A stretch of DNA of 18,950 bases from a virus (taxonomy: Duplodnaviria > Heunggongvirae > Uroviricota > Caudoviricetes). The stretch's first letter is position 1; each line of letters starts with the position of its first letter. Shown in pieces: positions 559 to 10,816 of this stretch. A program made the position numbers and the translations under genes. The notes below the pieces were generated by a model. The model searched no databases. It had not been told where the DNA came from and was given only the letters and a program-made list of their open reading frames with translations. Where the stretch lies: positions 1 to 18,950 of IMG/VR virus record IMGVR_UViG_2778261447_000004; one strand, 5' to 3'.

Positions 559-858
559 CTATAAAATATTAGATTCATAATTTTGTCCGCCGTGGTAAAC
601 GCCAGCGATAAAGACTTTATTGCCATCAACGGCAAAAGCAATAATCGTTCTGTGTCGGAAATGAGTTACCCGCATCCCCTGGCGAATATCATCGCGTTTA
701 TTGCCCCGATGCGGGAATGTAGAAAACCCATCAAGATAATCAAGAAGCGCATTGGCATAATTGTCAGCAATGACGCTTCCTGCTTTCTCCGTTATATATC
801 TGTGCAGGTTTATTATCTGCTGTTCGGCCTCGGGGGTAATGATGACTTCATATGTCAT
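559..858 (-). CDS. parE: Type II toxin, ParE/RelE superfamily (99 aa)
   Basis: About 100 aa, basic, with ParE-like composition. Starts 5 nt after the stop of an upstream ribbon-helix-helix antitoxin ORF on the same strand, the canonical antitoxin-then-toxin layout. Family assignment is from memory. Confidence 0.7.
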   Translation of the reverse strand: MTYEVIITPEAEQQIINLHRYITEKAGSVIADNYANALLDYLDGFSTFPHRGNKRDDIRQGMRVTHFRHRTIIAFAVDGNKVFIAGVYHGGQNYESNIL

Positions 859-2967: not shown

Positions 2968-3785
2968 AACTGGAAGATTTACCGAAATACTATTCCCCAA
3001 AATCGCCAGGCCTGACTGATGCATCCGTCTCGACGTCAAAAGATGCGCTGAGCATCACTGATGTGATGGCTGCGCAGGGTATGACACAAAACCGGGCTGA
3101 GATGGGATTTTCTGCGTTCCTGGGGAAAATGGGCATCAGTATGAATGACAGAACGCGGGCAACAGAATTACTGGCAGATTATGCACTCAGTCGGTGCGAT
3201 CGCGTGGCGGCGTTGAGAAAACTTCCGGCAGAAATAAAACCGACAGTGATGCGCATTATGGCTTCGTACGCTTTTGAGGATTATGCCCGTAGTGCAGCGA
3301 GTAAAAAACAGTGCCCTTGTTGCGGTGGGAAAAAATTTATTGAAAGCGTAGTTTTTACAAACAAGGTCCAGTATCCGGATGGTAAACCGCCGGTATGGGC
3401 AAAGTGTACAAAGGGTGTGTATCCGTCTTACTGGGAAGAATGGAAAAAAGTCCGGGAAGTGGTAAAAGTTGCCTGTCCTGAATGCGGGGGAAAGGGTGAG
3501 GTCTCCACCGCCTGTAATGATTGCCGTGGGCGTGGTGTCGCCATTCATCGTGAAGAGTCGGTAAAACGTGGTATGCCTGTTATCAGAGACTGCCAGCGTT
3601 GTGGTGGTCGTGGCTATGAAAGATTACCGTCAACAGAGGCGTTTAATGCCATATGCAAAGTGACGAGCGCTATCACTCTTGATACGTGGAAAAAATCAGT
3701 GAAGCGTTTTTACGATACGCTGGTGGTTCGGTTTGACATTGAAGAGTCATGGGCGGAGCGGCAGTTGAAGAGGGTAACGCGATAG
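2964..3785 (+). CDS. Late-gene antiterminator Q-like protein (273 aa) with four DnaJ-type CxxCxGxG zinc-finger repeats
   Basis: Start overlaps the rusA stop (ATGA). Lies immediately upstream of a PR'-like promoter and tR'-like terminator. Cys-rich repeats CPCCGGKK, CPECGGKG, CNDCRGRG, CQRCGGRG. Assignment is by synteny and Zn-finger content, not confirmed homology. Confidence 0.6.
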   Translation: MKLEDLPKYYSPKSPGLTDASVSTSKDALSITDVMAAQGMTQNRAEMGFSAFLGKMGISMNDRTRATELLADYALSRCDRVAALRKLPAEIKPTVMRIMASYAFEDYARSAASKKQCPCCGGKKFIESVVFTNKVQYPDGKPPVWAKCTKGVYPSYWEEWKKVREVVKVACPECGGKGEVSTACNDCRGRGVAIHREESVKRGMPVIRDCQRCGGRGYERLPSTEAFNAICKVTSAITLDTWKKSVKRFYDTLVVRFDIEESWAERQLKRVTR

Positions 3786-3890: not shown

Positions 3891-4011
3891 GTGTCCGAAA
3901 AACAGCACAGGACGTTAAACGCGCTGGTGGTTGCGAATACAGGTCTTTCAGCTTGCTGGCTTTTTAGACAAGAGTTATTGGTATGTCATGTTAACCAGAA
4001 GGGAAAAAGAC

Positions 4012-5412: not shown

Positions 5413-5418
5413 TCTGGT

Positions 5419-5440
5419 GGCCACGTCAGGTGGCCTTTTT
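5419..5440 (+). terminator. Rho-independent terminator between methyltransferase and holin
   Basis: Stem GGCCAC (5419-5424), loop GTCAG, stem GTGGCC (5430-5435), followed by TTTTTATTT. Confidence 0.6.
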
Positions 5441-5479
5441 ATTTCCATTACACAGCACCCGCATCTGCGAGGTGGGGTT

Positions 5480-5695
5480 ATGAAATCCATGGATAAGTTA
5501 ACAACGGGTGTCGCCTATGGCACCTCGGCAGGCAGTGCCGGGTACTGGTTTTTGCAGTGGATTGATCAGGTTAGTCCGTCACAGTGGGCTGCTATTGGTG
5601 TGCTGGGGAGTCTGGCACTGGGCTTTCTGACTTATCTGACGAATCTGTATTTCAAAATTAAAGAGGATCGGCGCAAAGTGGCGCGGGGAGAGTAG
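5480..5695 (+). CDS. S: Pinholin/antiholin, phage 21 S-type (71 aa, dual-start MKSM)
   Basis: Product [71 protein letters not shown] is near-identical to phage 21 S21 as I recall it. Two in-frame starts (5480 and 5489) are separated by a Lys codon, the classic antiholin/holin dual-start motif. Confidence 0.9.
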
Positions 5696-5698
5696 GCG

Positions 5699-6010
5699 AT
5701 GAATAAAAAATACGAACTGGTTATTAAAGGGATAAGTAGTCACCCGGATAAGGTTGTGGTTACTGTGGCGCTGGAGAGCGACGGCTATCCGACGCTGTTT
5801 TCGCCGCATGTGGTGATTAAGCTTGATCGTGTTGACGGCGCAGCGCTGGAGCTTTATGAAGCAGAGGCGAAAAAACGAGCGAAGAAGATTTTTATGGATG
5901 CTGCTGCCGGGTTATGTGAAGCGTGGTCGTTGCCGGAAAAGCGCCTCCATTCAGAGGCGCGGTATACCATAAAAATTAACGGTTCAGATAACTCAATTGC
6001 TGGTTTTTAA
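5699..6010 (+). CDS. Hypothetical protein between holin and endolysin (103 aa); possibly YdfR/DUF1327-like
   Basis: ATG with GGAGAG upstream, 3 nt after the holin stop. Same position and length as YdfR in the Qin prophage lysis cassette as I recall it. Sequence identity not verified. Confidence 0.55.
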   Translation: MNKKYELVIKGISSHPDKVVVTVALESDGYPTLFSPHVVIKLDRVDGAALELYEAEAKKRAKKIFMDAAAGLCEAWSLPEKRLHSEARYTIKINGSDNSIAGF

Positions 6011-6246
6011 CCTTTTGTCTCAGTTGGCTTTCCAATATCTTTCATTGGTAGCAGCATTTCGATATTGCTTTTGATATATGGATTATCTGCATGTTCTGTT
6101 AATTGATAAATGATAGCATTTTTTTCATTCTGGTCTAATACAGAAAACATAACTGCAATCATATATTTAAGAGCCTCAATTTCTCCTGTTGTTGAGTTGG
6201 GGGATGAACAGTCCGCTGTAACATTAATAAAAGTTTCTTTTTTCAT
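6007..6246 (-). CDS. Hypothetical small protein (79 aa), AT-rich antisense gene inside the lysis cassette
   Basis: ATG at 6246 preceded by AAGGA with 7-nt spacing. Visibly AT-rich compared with neighbours. Convergent with the 103-aa ORF, with a 4-bp overlap at the stops. No family recognised. Confidence 0.5.
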   Translation of the reverse strand: MKKETFINVTADCSSPNSTTGEIEALKYMIAVMFSVLDQNEKNAIIYQLTEHADNPYIKSNIEMLLPMKDIGKPTETKG

Positions 6247-6370: not shown

Positions 6371-6904
6371 ATGAGCACAAAAATCAGATACGGCCTGTCG
6401 GCTGCCGTTCTGGCGTTGATTGCTGCAGGTGCATCCGCTCCCGTCATTCTTGACCAGTTTCTGGACGAAAAAGAAGGTAATCACACTACGGCATACCGTG
6501 ATGGCTCCGGTATATGGACCATCTGTCGGGGTGCCACGATGGTGGATGGAAAACCCGTTTTTCCCGGTATGAAACTGTCGAAGGAAAAATGCGACCAGGT
6601 CAACGCTATCGAACGGGATAAGGCGCTGGCATGGGTGGAGCGCAATATTAAAGTTCCACTGACCGAAGCACAGAAAGCGGGTATTGCGTCATTCTGTCCC
6701 TATAACATTGGCCCCGGTAAGTGTTTCCCGTCGACGTTTTATAAGCGGCTTAATGCCGGTGATCGTAAAGGTGCCTGTGAGTCGATTCGCTGGTGGATTA
6801 AGGACGGTGGGCGTGATTGCCGCACACGTTCAAATAACTGCTACGGACAGGTTATTCGTCGTGACCAGGAAAGCGCATTAGCCTGTTGGGGGATAGATCA
6901 GTGA
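6371..6904 (+). CDS. R: SAR endolysin, T4-lysozyme-like muramidase (177 aa)
   Basis: N-terminal weakly hydrophobic Gly/Ala-rich signal-arrest-release segment [21 protein letters not shown]. Catalytic E-x8-D-x5-T triad in [16 protein letters not shown]. Pairs with a pinholin as in phage 21. Confidence 0.85.
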
Positions 6905-7365
6905 GAAGAGTAGTCGCGATTATCTCTGCTCTGGTTATCTGCATCATCGTCTGCCTGTCATGGGCTGTTAATCATTACCGTGATAACGCCATTACCTACA
7001 AAGCCCAGCGCGACAAAAATGCCAGAGAACTGAAGCTGGCGAACGTGGCAATTACTGACATGCAGATGCGTCAGCGTGATGTTGCTGCGCTCGATGCAAA
7101 ATACACGAAGGAGTTAGCTGATGCGAAAGCTGAAAATGATGCTCTGCGTGATGATGTTGCCGCTGGTCGTCGTCGGTTGCACATCAAAGCAGTCTGTCAG
7201 TCAGTGCGTGAAGCCACCACCGCCTCCGGCGTGGATAATGCAACCAGCCCCCGACTGGAAGACACCGCTGAACGGGATTATTTCACCCTCAGAGACCGAT
7301 TGATGACGATGCAGAAGCAACTGGAAGGGGCGCAGGAATATATCCGCACCCAGTGCATTAAGTAG
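6901..7365 (+). CDS. Rz: Spanin inner-membrane subunit Rz (i-spanin)
   Basis: GTG start overlapping the endolysin stop (GTGA). Product [44 protein letters not shown] is near-identical to lambda Rz. Confidence 0.85.
7121..7303 (+). CDS. Rz1: Spanin outer-membrane lipoprotein subunit Rz1 (o-spanin), embedded in Rz in the +1 frame
   Basis: Product [60 protein letters not shown] with lipobox VVGC and proline-rich stretch, near-identical to lambda Rz1. GGAG 7 nt upstream. Confidence 0.85.
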
Positions 7366-7388: not shown

Positions 7389-7595
7389 ATGAAGAAATTA
7401 CAGGTAACCGCAAAGCTCTTTAATGGAAGAATCCCGTTCCGGATTTTACAGCGTGGTCGTGTTCTGGCTGAAGGTACATTCAGTGGTAAATGCACGGAAT
7501 GTTATTCACGAATATATGAAGTGGATGCCTCGGATGAAGATATAACCGTTGAGTGTAATGCCGGGATTGTATCGGCCACATTGCTTCATGGGTGA
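7389..7595 (+). CDS. Hypothetical small protein (68 aa); stand-alone copy of a domain repeated in the 286-aa ORF
   Basis: ATG at 7389 preceded by AGGAG. By-eye alignment: KKLQVTAKLFNGRIPFRILQRGRVLAEGTFSGK...YEVDASDEDITVE...GIVSATLL versus residues about 113-185 of the 7961-8821 product KKALLVTANQLSGRVDFQVRQGGRVLVNDAFVGR...YDVDADDQDISIS...GIVLTAELL. Confidence 0.55.
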   Translation: MKKLQVTAKLFNGRIPFRILQRGRVLAEGTFSGKCTECYSRIYEVDASDEDITVECNAGIVSATLLHG

Positions 7596-7624
7596 ATTGG
7601 GTTGTCGCTGGAGGATGCAGGCAA

Positions 7625-7825
7625 ATGAATTACCAACTGGCAAAACTTTATCGTGGTAAACATTTCGCAGGGTATGGGATTGCAGTTAATGGTGAGTTAC
7701 TGGAAGGGCAGCTTTCCGCCAGGACAGAGTCACGTGGAGGCGAGCCACCAACAGTCACTGTGACTTTCAGACTGACAGCAGAACATATCGAGAATCAGCC
7801 CGTCATTCAACTGAACAGGGTGTGA
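7625..7825 (+). CDS. Hypothetical small protein (66 aa); weaker, possible third copy of the same domain
   Basis: ATG at 7625 with GGAGGA 9 nt upstream; a GTG at 7592 is the alternative start. AKLYRGKHFAGYGIAVNGELLEGQLSAR loosely aligns with AKLFNGRIPFRILQRGRVLAEGTFSGK of the preceding ORF. Confidence 0.5.
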   Translation: MNYQLAKLYRGKHFAGYGIAVNGELLEGQLSARTESRGGEPPTVTVTFRLTAEHIENQPVIQLNRV

Positions 7826-7832
7826 GGTATTT

Positions 7833-7961
7833 ATGCCATCACGAATCCCACGTGCCTGCCGTAAGCGTGGATGCGCAGGTACAATCACAGACAGTTCTGG
7901 TTACTGCGATAAACATCGTGTGCGACCGTGGTTGCTCGGTGTCTTTGTCAGGAGGTTTTGA
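7833..7961 (+). pseudogene. Short ORF (42 aa) resembling the N-terminal zinc-binding region of a phage HNH endonuclease; probable truncated remnant
   Basis: ATG at 7833 with GAGG 6 nt upstream. Product MPSRIPRACRKRGCAGTITDSSGYCDKHRVRPW... has the C-x3-GC ... GYC-x2-H pattern seen at the N-terminus of terminase-associated HNH endonucleases. Frame ends after 42 codons with TGA overlapping the ATG of the next ORF, where composition becomes AT-rich. Confidence 0.4.
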
Positions 7962-8821
7962 TGAAAGAGTTGCAAAAAATTAATTCAATAATGGAAAGGT
8001 TAAGTGCTCTTGAGCGTAAGCTGGACGATTGTGGAAAGCTGTGTGTTGAAAAGCAAAATGAGCTTTACCGGGAATTTTTTACAATCGTAAGTGAGCTGAT
8101 GCCAATTGTTAATAACTGCCTGATGACATCCAGATTTTTTAATGTCGATGCTACTACATCCAGAAAATTTTCTGTGAAAATTCAAGAAAGAGTTTCTGGT
8201 AGTGTGACAAGAGAGATGGCTGAACAGTTGGTGGCAATGAGCAATAAAACAAAAAGAAAAAAGGCATTGCTTGTAACAGCAAATCAGCTTTCAGGGCGCG
8301 TTGACTTTCAGGTCAGACAGGGTGGGCGTGTACTGGTAAATGATGCGTTCGTTGGACGTAGCTTTAGTCCTTACTCGATAAAATATGATGTTGATGCAGA
8401 TGATCAGGATATCAGCATTTCCTGGAAATCTGAGACAGCAGGGATTGTATTAACAGCAGAGTTGTTGAGTGATGATAAAAATGATGTCCAGCATCATTTG
8501 GACGAAAAGAATCATATTTCTGAAATTTGTATGAAGCCACGCAGCGGAATGACTTTATTGTCACGCACTCTTGCTGCTGGCTTTTCTGCACCGGAAAAAC
8601 GTGTGCTTCTGGTAGTGCCTGAAGATGCAGATATTCGACCACTGAATGGCTGTGATGTTATTAGTGCAAAAACATTGCATACCCGCGTCATTCCTGTACC
8701 GGATGTGGTCATTATTGATGATGTTGAGAAATGCAAGTCTGTTTCCTCAACTGCCACAATCAAGCGAATTTTACGTTGTAGCACGTCGGCTGTTGTATTC
8801 CGGAAGCAGTTACATAACTAA
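7961..8821 (+). CDS. Hypothetical protein (286 aa): N-terminal predicted helical region, central domain paralogous to the 68-aa ORF, unique C-terminal region
   Basis: ATG at 7961 with AGGAGG 5 nt upstream. Strongly AT-rich relative to the phage backbone. Internal domain homology described under 7389-7595. No family recognised. Confidence 0.65.
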   Translation: MKELQKINSIMERLSALERKLDDCGKLCVEKQNELYREFFTIVSELMPIVNNCLMTSRFFNVDATTSRKFSVKIQERVSGSVTREMAEQLVAMSNKTKRKKALLVTANQLSGRVDFQVRQGGRVLVNDAFVGRSFSPYSIKYDVDADDQDISISWKSETAGIVLTAELLSDDKNDVQHHLDEKNHISEICMKPRSGMTLLSRTLAAGFSAPEKRVLLVVPEDADIRPLNGCDVISAKTLHTRVIPVPDVVIIDDVEKCKSVSSTATIKRILRCSTSAVVFRKQLHN

Positions 8822-8944
8822 CCAGTTTTGTTTTGCAGAACATCCTCAACTAAAAGCTTATAGAAAGAGAGCCTGAGATATTTTTTCTGTCTCTCGTAGT
8901 TGTTTGTTTTTTTCGAACAGGCTTACAACTTACAGGATATAAAC

Positions 8945-9394
8945 ATGCAAGAAGAAGCAAATAAAATTCTTGTTGATTTATTGCAGAAGGCCAGCGATGG
9001 AATTGATTCCGCCATTGCATTCAGTCAGGCTCAGATTCCGGATGTTGTTCATCAGTTGCTGGTATGGAATATGGTTGATAGCCTGATTAAAACATTAATA
9101 GCCATTTCAACAATCCCTCTGGTTTTCTGGTTTATGAAGAAGCAGTGCCAAAGAGTTGAGACAGGTAAAATCGGTGATGAAGGATATTCATGGGAGAAGG
9201 GAAATCCCAAATACAGGCCGACAATGGTTTGGGATAGCAAAGGTGATATTAATCTTCTTATCGTGCCATTGGTTGGAGTTTTGACTATGTGGGGGATTTT
9301 TATTATTTGTGCAGTAACCAATATGACATGGTTAAAAATCTGGCTGGCACCTAAGTTATATCTAATCGAATACGCAGCATCACTAATTAAATAG
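8945..9394 (+). CDS. Hypothetical membrane protein with two predicted transmembrane helices (149 aa)
   Basis: ATG at 8945 with AGGA 7 nt upstream. Hydrophobic segments LIKTLIAISTIPLVFWFM and INLLIVPLVGVLTMWGIFIICAV. AT-rich. Followed by terminator-like hairpins. Confidence 0.6.
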   Translation: MQEEANKILVDLLQKASDGIDSAIAFSQAQIPDVVHQLLVWNMVDSLIKTLIAISTIPLVFWFMKKQCQRVETGKIGDEGYSWEKGNPKYRPTMVWDSKGDINLLIVPLVGVLTMWGIFIICAVTNMTWLKIWLAPKLYLIEYAASLIK

Positions 9395-9451
9395 TCCATT
9401 ACAAAAGCCATTCGCTACAGAGTGGCTTTGATAATGGCTTATGCCCTGTAC

Positions 9452-9477
9452 GGGATAACTTAACTGATATCCCTTTT
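9452..9477 (+). terminator. Putative rho-independent terminator closing the accessory cassette
   Basis: Stem GGGATA (9452-9457), 10-nt loop, stem TATCCC (9468-9473), then TTTT. A second weaker hairpin AAAGCCA...TGGCTTT lies at 9403-9428. Confidence 0.45.
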
Positions 9478-9688
9478 AACGGATAAAGGTATTCAAGCCT
9501 GACACATCATGCGCTGTATCGTCGCCGTATTCCCGTATTAACAGAGACCGTAGCCCGACGGGGAACTCCTCTGCGCGAGTGTGCGGGAATAATCAAAAAC
9601 GATGCACACCGGGTTTTACTGTGCTGACAGACGCAGGGTTACCCTCATAGTCGCTTTTCCGGTGCGATGGTGGAAGAAACCGGGATGT

Positions 9689-9883
9689 TTATTCATCATC
9701 TCTTTGGATTGATGTATATGCTCTCTTTTCTGACGTTAGTCTCCGACGGCAGGCTTCAATGACCCAGGCTGAGAAATTCCCGGACCCTTTTTGCTCAAGA
9801 GCGATGTTAATTTGTTCAATCATTTGGTTAGGAAAGCGGATGTTGCGGGTTGTTGTTCTGCGGGTTCTGTTCTTCGTTGACAT
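9689..9883 (-). CDS. Small ribbon-helix-helix-like DNA-binding protein (64 aa); resembles DUF3950/YlcI-type prophage proteins
   Basis: Product MSTKNRTRRTTTRNIRFPNQMIEQINIALEQKGSGNFSAWVIEACRRRL fits a ribbon-helix-helix pattern after a basic N-terminus. Only a weak ribosome-binding site. Family attribution is from memory. Confidence 0.5.
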   Translation of the reverse strand: MSTKNRTRRTTTRNIRFPNQMIEQINIALEQKGSGNFSAWVIEACRRRLTSEKRAYTSIQRDDE

Positions 9884-10093: not shown

Positions 10094-10309
10094 CGCGGTT
10101 TTTCGCTATTTATGAGATTTTTTGAGGGGGTGGTTGTTGTTTAATTGTTTGGTATATCTAATTGATAAGTAAGGTGAAAATAAAATAAATACAACAACCT
10201 TACGATGTGCTTTGATGTCATTAATGTGAAAAAATTAAATGATATCAAATGGTTTTGTAAAAACACATGGTTGTTGTATCGCTTTTTATCGATGACTTAT
10301 GGAGAGGAG

Positions 10310-10816
10310 ATGGCCTTTTTATTGAATAAAAGTGATATGGCCTCCTCCATCGGTATCTCTGTTCAGGCATTTGATAAATGGGGCGTTCCTCCTGTCGAGC
10401 GTCGGGGGAGGGAAGTTTTTTATGACGTTAAAACTGTACTGGAGATAGATCGCGAGCGGCGACAACACAATCATAGAACACCTGATGACGGGGGCGATCT
10501 GGAGGAAAGGCTGCTTCGGGCCAGAGCTGAACTGACAGAAGAACAGGCCGTAGCTCAAAAACTTAAAAATCAGGTAACCGAAGGTAAGCTCATCGATTCA
10601 GACTTCTGCGTTTTCGCCCTCAGCAAGCTGGCGATGGCATTGTCCAGTACGCTTGATTCTATTCCGTTATCCATGCAGCGACAGTTCCCGGATTTAACGC
10701 CACGTCATCTTGACCATCTGAAAACCCTTATTGCGAAGGGCGCAAATCAGTGTGCGCGGGCAGGGGATAAATTACCGGATTTGCTGGATGAATATATCAG
10801 AGCAACAACTGAATAA
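10310..10816 (+). CDS. nu1: Terminase small subunit Nu1
   Basis: ATG at 10310 with GGAGAGGAG upstream. Alignable to lambda Nu1: ALSKLAMALSSTLDSIPLSMQRQFPDLTPRHLDHLK versus VLSRIAGEIASILDGLPLSVQRRFPELENRHVDFLK. Stop overlaps the start of A as in lambda. Confidence 0.8.
   Translation: MAFLLNKSDMASSIGISVQAFDKWGVPPVERRGREVFYDVKTVLEIDRERRQHNHRTPDDGGDLEERLLRARAELTEEQAVAQKLKNQVTEGKLIDSDFCVFALSKLAMALSSTLDSIPLSMQRQFPDLTPRHLDHLKTLIAKGANQCARAGDKLPDLLDEYIRATTE

What the first reader, a model, noticed from the sequence alone, without database searches (positions are those of the whole stretch)
7389..8821. A roughly 70-aa domain present as a free-standing protein and again inside the 286-aa protein
The 68-aa product aligns by eye at about 35-40 percent identity with residues about 113-185 of the 286-aa protein (shared blocks L.VTA..L.GR..F...Q.GRVL....F.G, Y.VDA.D.DI.., GIV..A.LL). 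The 66-aa product shows a weaker match to the same region. Paralogous small and embedded copies in one locus suggest a decoy/regulator and effector arrangement, or a modular binding domain.
Basis: seen in the sequence. Interest (0 to 1): 0.6.

Follow-up and report, generated by a model that had tools for sequence, protein, structure and literature searches.

The report
Shared beta-sandwich domain in two prophage proteins
A small prophage protein and the middle of a larger neighbouring protein really do share one domain of unknown function, but the two genes were brought side by side by a single phage module swap and are not a conserved pair, so this is ordinary phage mosaicism.

Summary
The main observation holds. 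The 68-aa product (7389-7595) matches residues 101-169 of the 286-aa product (7961-8821) at 45% identity (E 3e-14, z = 22 against shuffles). An independent family profile also finds the embedded copy (5e-19). The claimed weaker match of the 66-aa product does not hold by BLASTP, shuffles or profile-profile comparison.

The domain is a six-stranded beta-sandwich (AlphaFold2 pLDDT 91). It has no Pfam, NCBIfam, PADLOC or PDB relative. Most members of its family are free-standing 68-81 aa proteins of enterobacterial temperate phages, usually encoded just after the spanin genes and before the terminase. The 286-aa protein (coiled coil, sandwich, alpha/beta domain) is a rare Escherichia/Shigella fusion, carried largely by N15-like plasmid prophages.

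The pair is not conserved. Only 1 of 5426 complete E. coli genomes has both genes adjacent, while 28 carry the full-length large gene and roughly 880 carry the small-ORF region. A recombination junction at about 7920, inside a truncated HNH gene and at an intergenic palindrome, explains the adjacency. A dedicated decoy/effector pair is therefore unsupported. "Modular domain" is supported. The function remains inferred: a late-expressed accessory binding module.

The parts
7389..7595 (+). 68-aa free-standing copy of the beta-sandwich domain. It starts 23 nt after the Rz stop codon, with AGGAG 5 nt upstream of the ATG.
   Evidence: AlphaFold2 pLDDT 91.4, six strands. dN/dS is 0.33 against the 74-aa homologue in L004.
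7625..7825 (+). 66-aa ORF (phrog_10235 family). It is a neighbour only and is not related to the domain.
7833..7919 (+). 5' remnant of an HNH endonuclease gene. The open frame runs on to 7961, but homology to intact HNH genes stops at about 7921.
   Evidence: PGAP annotates it as a pseudogene in TUM1886. The intact 116-aa HNH gene is present in L028, L033 and L035. One search gives the junction alignment.
7920..7937 (.). Degenerate copy of the intergenic palindrome GTGCGACC-GT-GGTCGCAC. It marks the recombination junction between the lysis-side module and the 286/149/Nu1 module.
7961..8821 (+). 286-aa three-part protein (phrog_2571), 40.7% GC. Relative to E. coli TUM9803, which lacks it, the gene lies within a stretch of about 940 bp (about 7950-8890) that is present or absent as a unit.
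7961..8251 (+). N-terminal helical region of the 286-aa protein. Residues 1-56 form a predicted helical hairpin or coiled coil, and residues 81-97 form a further helix.
   Evidence: Confidence is low to moderate (pLDDT 57-70 for residues 1-50, below 40 for 51-98).
8261..8467 (+). Embedded copy of the beta-sandwich domain, residues 101-169 of the 286-aa protein.
   Evidence: (pLDDT 71-78).
8552..8809 (+). C-terminal alpha/beta domain of the 286-aa protein, residues about 198-283. It has its own free-standing homologue (P0093, 111 aa) and a weak, non-significant resemblance to P-loop proteins.
8945..9394 (+). 149-aa membrane protein (phrog_3054). It travels with the 286-aa gene here and in PhiR46_1, but also occurs without it (TUM9803, L038).
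6886..7365 (+). Rz spanin gene, with Rz1 embedded at 7121-7303. This is the last lysis gene and lies directly upstream of the small ORF.

Best explanation
The window is a lambdoid E. coli prophage.

Shown: the 68-aa gene is an intact member of a family of mostly free-standing, single-domain, six-stranded beta-sandwich proteins of 68-81 aa, found in temperate phages of Enterobacterales. In most members examined it is the first gene after the spanin genes, in the accessory stretch between the lysis cassette and the terminase. The 286-aa gene is a rare fusion, seen in Escherichia and Shigella, in which the same domain sits between an N-terminal helical region and a C-terminal alpha/beta domain. 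It lies within a low-GC stretch of about 940 bp that is present or absent as a unit, and it is carried largely by N15-like linear plasmid prophages. The two old paralogues became neighbours through one module exchange. The lysis-68-66-HNH left arm of an HK97-type-terminase phage was joined, at an intergenic palindrome inside what is now an HNH remnant (about 7920), to the 286-149-YnfO-Nu1 right arm of a lambda/N15-type phage.

Inferred: both genes have strong ribosome-binding sites, and no own promoter or terminator was detected. They are therefore probably read as part of the late (Q-dependent) transcript. The sandwich most likely acts as a cytoplasmic binding or oligomerisation module. The free-standing form would work alone as a late accessory factor, most plausibly in phage-host or phage-phage conflict. 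In the 286-aa protein the same module would supply recognition or assembly to the flanking domains. The two are not a dedicated regulator/effector pair.
For: Homology is shown.

The small ORF is a real gene. The word-indexed search returned 47 relatives, mostly 68-90 aa. The exhaustive HMMER search returned 43 representatives, of which only one is a full-length 286-type protein. dN/dS is 0.33. The AlphaFold2 model has pLDDT 91.4 and pTM 0.75.

The position after the lysis genes recurs with four different kinds of last lysis gene: Rz in the window, L004 and 56 of 80 IMG/VR loci with a gap of about 23-29 nt; DUF2514 in L011-13; DUF2570/LysC in L005-8, one short ORF further downstream; and a 60-65 aa lipoprotein with an LVGC lipobox, read as spanin-like by eye only.

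Independence of the two genes rests. PhiR46_1 has the 286-aa gene but no small copy and is an N15-like plasmid prophage with telL/telR and ParAB. Fourteen of the 35 E. coli genome hits to the 286-aa gene lie on plasmids, most of them about 46 kb.

The identical 68-aa protein occurs in two arrangements, and the junction has been mapped. The 286-aa gene lies in a present/absent stretch bounded by a TGTC microhomology.

The copies are old paralogues: DNA identity is about 56%, and the embedded copy is 28-41% identical to every family member.

On transcription, no promoter or terminator excess was found and the ribosome-binding sites are strong.

The accessory context is supported by members that sit next to Acb2/Tad1-hairpin genes upstream of Nu1, near ParDE and a kinase, or between Q and the holin.
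Confidence: 0.6

Rival explanations
1. The small family is a lysis-cassette accessory that modulates lysis timing or membrane integrity. The 286-aa protein would be a larger lysis-associated paralogue. This resembles the Bacillus prophage lytic-cassette pair XepA (two-domain) and YomS (a free-standing copy of one XepA domain).
Confidence: 0.17
2. One reading: the small protein is a decoy or regulator of the 286-aa effector, and together they form a functional two-gene system.
For: The two share a domain at 45% identity. They are adjacent and on the same strand. The arrangement recurs in several draft genomes (L030-32, L034, L036).
Against: The pair is adjacent in 1 of 5426 complete genomes, and 27 of the 28 genomes with the full-length large gene lack an adjacent small ORF. 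The N15-like carriers have no small copy at all. None of 80 viral loci with the small gene has the large one within 3 kb. The adjacency is explained by one recombination junction. An HNH remnant and an unrelated 66-aa gene lie between the two.
Confidence: 0.08
3. The 68-aa ORF is a dead internal fragment of a former 286-type gene, left behind by recombination.
For: Its only strong PHROG match is to positions 100-158 of the large-protein family phrog_2571. The region does contain a true gene remnant, the truncated HNH gene.
Against: The free-standing form is the common, diverse form across Escherichia, Salmonella and Yersinia. The members examined in full share a Met-Lys start and lengths of about 68-81 aa. 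The ORF covers the complete fold, has a strong ribosome-binding site, and has dN/dS of 0.33. Full-length 286-type proteins are far rarer than the small form.
Confidence: 0.03

Closest known systems
PHROG family phrog_2571 (unknown function)
   Same: The 286-aa protein matches it end to end (E 6.7e-164, residues 1-286 on profile positions 1-291 of 291). The 68-aa protein matches its positions 100-158 (E 6.7e-24).
   Different: The PHROG has no annotated function. The small free-standing proteins are the larger and more diverse group and are not full-length members of it.
[quoted passage not shown]
   Different: There is no sequence relation. XepA consists of two sandwiches joined by a linker and forms pentamers, whereas the 286-aa protein is a helical region, a sandwich and an alpha/beta domain. 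The oligomeric state and cytotoxicity of the proteins here are unknown.
Generic small beta-sandwich modules (PNGase F domain, CBM6/35/36, lambda J domain, FlgD)
   Different: Identity is 3-16%, no family stands out, and no carbohydrate-binding or calcium-binding motif was tested. The proteins here have no signal peptide, so an extracellular sugar-binding role is unlikely.
Accessory ('moron') genes in the stretch between lysis genes and terminase of lambdoid phages, such as lambda bor (own knowledge)
   Same: They occupy the same variable, low-GC position in the genome and show patchy, cassette-like presence or absence.
   Different: Bor is a lipoprotein transcribed from its own promoter in the lysogen. 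The genes here have no detectable promoter or signal peptide and lie on the late strand.

Membership tests
phrog_2571 | Full-length match to the family profile | tested here: met
   286-aa protein: E 6.7e-164, residues 1-286 on profile 1-291/291. The 68-aa protein covers only profile positions 100-158, so it shares a domain with the family but is not a full member.
Unnamed family of free-standing small beta-sandwich phage proteins (68-81 aa) | A single domain spanning the whole protein, with a Met-Lys start, conserved Q21, G33 and K34, and the FxVxQxG(R/K)xL block | tested here: met
   Alignment A2. The independent profile hits the 68-aa frame at 5e-29 and the embedded copy at 5e-19. The embedded copy has R in place of K34.
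Unnamed family of free-standing small beta-sandwich phage proteins (68-81 aa) | Six-stranded all-beta fold | tested here: met
   AlphaFold2 pLDDT 91.4 for the 68-aa protein. The same strand pattern appears at residues 100-169 of the 286-aa model, pLDDT 71-78.
Two-gene regulator/effector (or toxin/antidote-like) system | Conserved co-occurrence and adjacency of the two genes across genomes | tested here: not met
   The pair is adjacent in 1 of 5426 complete E. coli genomes, and each gene is common without the other.
Two-gene regulator/effector (or toxin/antidote-like) system | Physical interaction between the two products | not testable with these tools
XepA/YomS lytic-cassette proteins | Sequence or specific fold homology to XepA or YomS | tested here: inconclusive
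XepA/YomS lytic-cassette proteins | Pentameric assembly and cytotoxicity | not testable with these tools
   These require experiment or multimer modelling.
[quoted passage not shown] | Walker A motif GxxxxGK[ST] | tested here: not met
   The aligned position reads RSGMT, with Met where the Lys would be. The best PDB matches (cystovirus P4, Wzc) have E 0.2-1, which is not significant. The domain is only about 90 residues long.
Known anti-phage defence system proteins (PADLOC-DB v2) | Match to any model | tested here: not met
   No hit at E<=1 for the 68-, 66-, 286-, 149- and 64-aa proteins.
Pfam / NCBIfam families | Match to any curated model | tested here: not met
   No hits for the 68-, 66- or 286-aa proteins. 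Pfam was searched at E<=0.01 for all three and at E<=10 for the 68- and 286-aa proteins. NCBIfam was searched at E<=0.1.

The most novel reading that the evidence does not exclude
The small beta-sandwich proteins would be a new class of late-expressed phage counter-defence or lysis-control factors, fixed at the junction between spanin and terminase genes across enterobacterial temperate phages. The 286-aa protein would be an oligomeric effector that uses the same sandwich for assembly or target capture. Where both are present, the free copy would co-assemble with the large protein and tune its activity.
Probability: 0.1. Interest if true: 0.6.

Novelty: new member of a known kind. Interest (0 to 1): 0.28.

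Why it matters
The finding defines an uncurated domain family, absent from Pfam and NCBIfam and without a PDB relative. The family has a confident predicted fold and a strikingly regular position after the spanin genes in enterobacterial temperate phages, including Shiga-toxin phages. That makes it a cheap and well-delimited target for functional screens of lysis timing or anti-defence activity. The locus is also a clean worked example of how a phage module swap at a short palindromic boundary element can place old paralogues side by side and mimic a two-gene "system". Beyond that it is ordinary phage mosaicism.

Tried and rejected
- The 66-aa protein as a third copy of the domain: rejected.
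- A second degenerate copy inside the 286-aa protein (BLASTP E 0.03): rejected by shuffling.
- Recent local duplication: rejected, since DNA identity is about 56% and the embedded copy is about equally distant from all family members.
- Fold search with the low-confidence 286-aa model against the PDB: only noise, with TM-scores below 0.2.
- AFDB50 library: not available.
- PDB sequence searches: nothing significant.
- Pfam at E<=10, NCBIfam and PADLOC: nothing.
- Relation between the 204-aa gene upstream of the small gene in L020 and the N-terminus of the 286-aa protein: none.
- Literature search by protein accession and PHROG id: no papers.
- Scan of species-representative genomes: the first alignment was too diverse, and the second gave 23 pattern matches, none of them confirmed. 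Taxonomic breadth therefore rests on the protein searches and IMG/VR.
- Promoter and terminator scan: no excess over shuffles, so nothing was concluded from single sites.

Full report
**Setting.** The window is a contig of an E. coli assembly (NOCS01000072.1 of GCA_002549495.1, locus L029) and carries a lambdoid prophage. The gene order from Pfam and PHROG scans is:
- ParE toxin (minus strand)
- DUF968
- RusA
- antiterminator Q
- a DNA methylase
- a P21-type holin (5417-5695)
- a DUF1327 gene (5699-6010)
- lysozyme (6371-6904)
- Rz (6886-7365), with Rz1 embedded at 7121-7303
- the 68-aa ORF (7389-7595)
- the 66-aa ORF (7625-7825)
- a 5' remnant of an HNH endonuclease gene (from 7833)
- the 286-aa ORF (7961-8821)
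- a 149-aa membrane protein (8945-9394)
- a YlcI/YnfO (DUF3950) gene on the minus strand (9689-9883)
- Nu1 (10205-10816), then the large terminase and lambda-type head genes

GC content falls from about 0.50 in the lysis genes to 0.40-0.44 across 7500-9500.

**The observation.** The 68-aa product aligns with residues 101-169 of the 286-aa product at 45% identity with two small gaps (BLASTP E 3e-14). The local alignment score is 120, against 26.5 +/- 4.2 for 2000 shuffles of the small protein. That is z = 22, and no shuffle came near it. As an independent test I built a profile from 23 other family members. Both window sequences, their two closest relatives and both embedded-domain sequences were left out. 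Searched against the six-frame translation of the window, this profile hits the 68-aa frame (5e-29) and the 286-aa frame (5e-19, at the same residues) and nothing else. The coordinates roughly fit counting from the upstream GTG at 7928, whereas the ATG at 7961 has an AGGAGG 5 nt upstream and is the start used in public annotation.

The claimed weaker match of the 66-aa product is not there. BLASTP finds nothing at E<=100 and shuffle z-scores are 0.3 and 1.9. Profile-profile comparison of an 11-member alignment of its family against the domain family and against the large-protein alignment gives probability 0.1%. A hint of a second copy in the C-terminal part of the large protein (E 0.03) also fails shuffling.

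**What the domain is.** With a 28-sequence alignment, AlphaFold2 models the 68-aa protein at pLDDT 91.4 and pTM 0.75. The model is six beta-strands that fill the whole chain. The 286-aa model is poor overall (pLDDT 56.5). It shows the same six-strand pattern at residues 100-169 with pLDDT 71-78. An N-terminal helical hairpin (2-56) and a helix at 81-97 precede the sandwich, and a C-terminal alpha/beta domain (about 199-281, pLDDT about 65) follows it.

**The family.** The word-indexed search found 47 relatives of the 68-aa protein. Most are 68-90 aa, they come mostly from Escherichia and Salmonella, and identity goes down to about 57%. An exhaustive HMMER search of 1.84 billion representatives found only 43 proteins. 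The query was a profile combining large and small forms. The hits break down as follows:
- One full-length 286-type representative.
- About 30 clusters, mostly of small free-standing proteins and extending to Yersinia.
- A few other architectures: P0081 (225 aa, domain at the C-terminus), P0071 and P0082 (181 and 169 aa, domain at the N-terminus), and P0083/85/90/91 (117-126 aa, with short tails).

Across the family K2, Q21 and G33 are invariant, and V6, F17, L26, K34, Y43 and V45 are nearly so. The small ORF is under purifying selection: dN/dS is 0.33 against the 74-aa homologue in phage PPyecE_EH1910. The free-standing protein is therefore the usual, older form, and the 286-aa protein is a rare derived fusion. 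The word-indexed search found it only in Escherichia/Shigella, at 80% identity or more for full-length members. The embedded copy is 28-41% identical to every family member, and the two window copies are about 56% identical in DNA. The window copies are old paralogues, not a local duplication.

**Where the genes sit.** The small gene starts 23 nt after Rz in the window and in PPyecE_EH1910. In 56 of 80 IMG/VR loci an Rz homologue ends about 23-29 nt upstream of it. In a subgroup whose proteins start with MKR, it follows a 60-65 aa lipoprotein (LVGC lipobox) that I read by eye as spanin-like. P0083 follows a DUF2514 spanin by 42 nt. The Yersinia member P0089 lies one short ORF after a DUF2570/LysC spanin pair.

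Other members lie elsewhere in accessory DNA:
- P0080 and P0081 lie next to an Acb2/Tad1-hairpin gene just upstream of Nu1.
- P0076 lies near ParDE, a protein kinase and ERF.
- P0079 lies near Ail/Lom.
- P0071 lies between Q and the holins.

No promoter or terminator excess was found around the window genes, and all three ORFs have good ribosome-binding sites. Transcription as part of the late operon is the simplest reading, but this is inferred.

**Why the two copies are neighbours.** Among 5426 complete E. coli genomes, 35 carry the 286-aa gene. Twenty-eight of these copies are full-length, and 14 of the 35 lie on plasmid records, most of them about 46 kb. About 880 genomes carry the small-ORF region. 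Only one genome, TUM1886, has both genes adjacent as in the window. PhiR46_1 carries the 286-aa and 149-aa genes after Rz but has no small copy. It is an N15-like linear plasmid prophage with telL/telR sites and ParAB. TUM9803 has the small-ORF region and the 149-aa gene but lacks about 940 bp containing the 286-aa gene. A TGTC microhomology lies at both ends of that stretch.

The identical 68-aa protein occurs in two arrangements:
- Rz-68-66-intact HNH (116 aa)-HK97-type terminase (L028, L033, L035).
- Rz-68-66-HNH remnant-286-149-YnfO-Nu1 (the window, L030-32, L034, L036).

Aligning the three types places the junction at 7918-7922. The window follows the intact-HNH type up to ...GATAAACATCGTG and follows PhiR46_1 from GTGCGACCGTGG... 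onwards. The junction coincides with an 18-bp palindrome, GTGCGACC-GT-GGTCGCAC. This palindrome recurs in intergenic positions three times in PhiR46_1 and in an unrelated metagenomic phage. One module exchange therefore joined a lysis-side arm carrying the small gene to a terminase-side arm carrying the large gene.

**Mechanism.** The following points are shown: the shared fold, the modular use of the domain, the independent distribution of the two genes, and the recombinational origin of their adjacency. The rest is inferred. The sandwich is most likely a cytoplasmic binding or oligomerisation module made late in infection. The free form would act alone as an accessory factor. I favour a role in phage-host or phage-phage conflict, for four reasons: its patchy distribution, its accessory-region contexts, the Acb2/Tad1 neighbours, and its fusion to varied partners. 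Probability for that specific role is about 0.35.

[quoted passage not shown] It reads RSGMT where GK[ST] would be. At most it is a degenerate P-loop-like remnant, and I do not file it as an NTPase.

**Verdict.** The homology is real, the third member is spurious, and the locus is not a dedicated two-gene system. All database names for these proteins are "hypothetical protein", and I found no paper on them. It is an uncharacterised but ordinary phage accessory domain family, and the adjacency is a product of mosaicism.

Noticed in passing
window 7920-7937; L001 (PhiR46_1) 704-719, 3742-3757, 3962-3977; L020 447-462, 2856-2871; L021 1858-1873: An 18-bp perfect palindrome, GTGCGACC-GT-GGTCGCAC (degenerate in the window), recurs in intergenic positions just after accessory genes in an N15-like plasmid prophage and in an unrelated metagenomic phage. 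In the window it marks the recombination junction. It could be a module-boundary or recombination element, or a protein-binding site.
   Followed up: partly
window 7833-7961: A 5' remnant of an HNH endonuclease gene. It has 34-38 codons of real homology and then reads into foreign sequence. The intact 116-aa gene, followed by an HK97-type terminase, is present in relatives that carry the identical 68-aa protein (L028, L033, L035).
   Followed up: yes
window 5699-6010 (+) and 6007-6246 (-): A DUF1327 gene sits between the holin and the endolysin inside the lysis cassette, followed by a 79-aa ORF on the opposite strand. The last 18 or so residues of the DUF1327 protein reappear in the middle of P0071, a 181-aa fusion that starts with the beta-sandwich domain.
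   Followed up: no
window 8552-8809 (residues ~198-283 of the 286-aa protein); P0093: The C-terminal alpha/beta domain has its own free-standing homologue of 111 aa, found in a phage early region near RNase H, DUF4942 and Ea22 genes (L009). It also shows a weak, non-significant P-loop-like pattern (RSGMT ... DVVIIDD). Two of the three parts of the 286-aa protein, the sandwich and this C-terminal domain, therefore also exist as separate small proteins.
   Followed up: partly
L020 4001-4598, L021 3003-3600, L010 131-1147: Distant family members (P0080, 81 aa; P0081, 225 aa) are directly followed by a gene with the Acb2/Tad1 hairpin domain (anti-CBASS / anti-Thoeris sponge family), just upstream of Nu1. 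In L020 the small gene overlaps the end of a 204-aa gene by 4 nt. In P0081 a related upstream protein is fused to the domain.
   Followed up: partly
window 8945-9394: A 149-aa protein with predicted membrane helices (phrog_3054) follows the 286-aa gene. It also occurs without that gene (TUM9803, L038) and in unrelated phages (HF4s, Gally, Oslo). Its function is unknown.
   Followed up: no
E. coli complete genomes: Seven genomes carry truncated copies of the 286-aa gene: the first 585 nt on four plasmids of about 46-75 kb, and the first 353 nt on three chromosomes. This suggests repeated decay or further recombination within the gene.
   Followed up: no
L003 3024-3293 (TUM9803); L037-L041, L069: Several genomes have C-terminally extended versions of the small ORF (79-108 aa), caused by frameshift or loss of the stop codon. 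This shows that the 3' end of the gene is unstable.
   Followed up: no
window 559-858 (-): A ParE-family toxin gene lies near the left end of the window, presumably part of a ParDE pair in the prophage early region.
   Followed up: no
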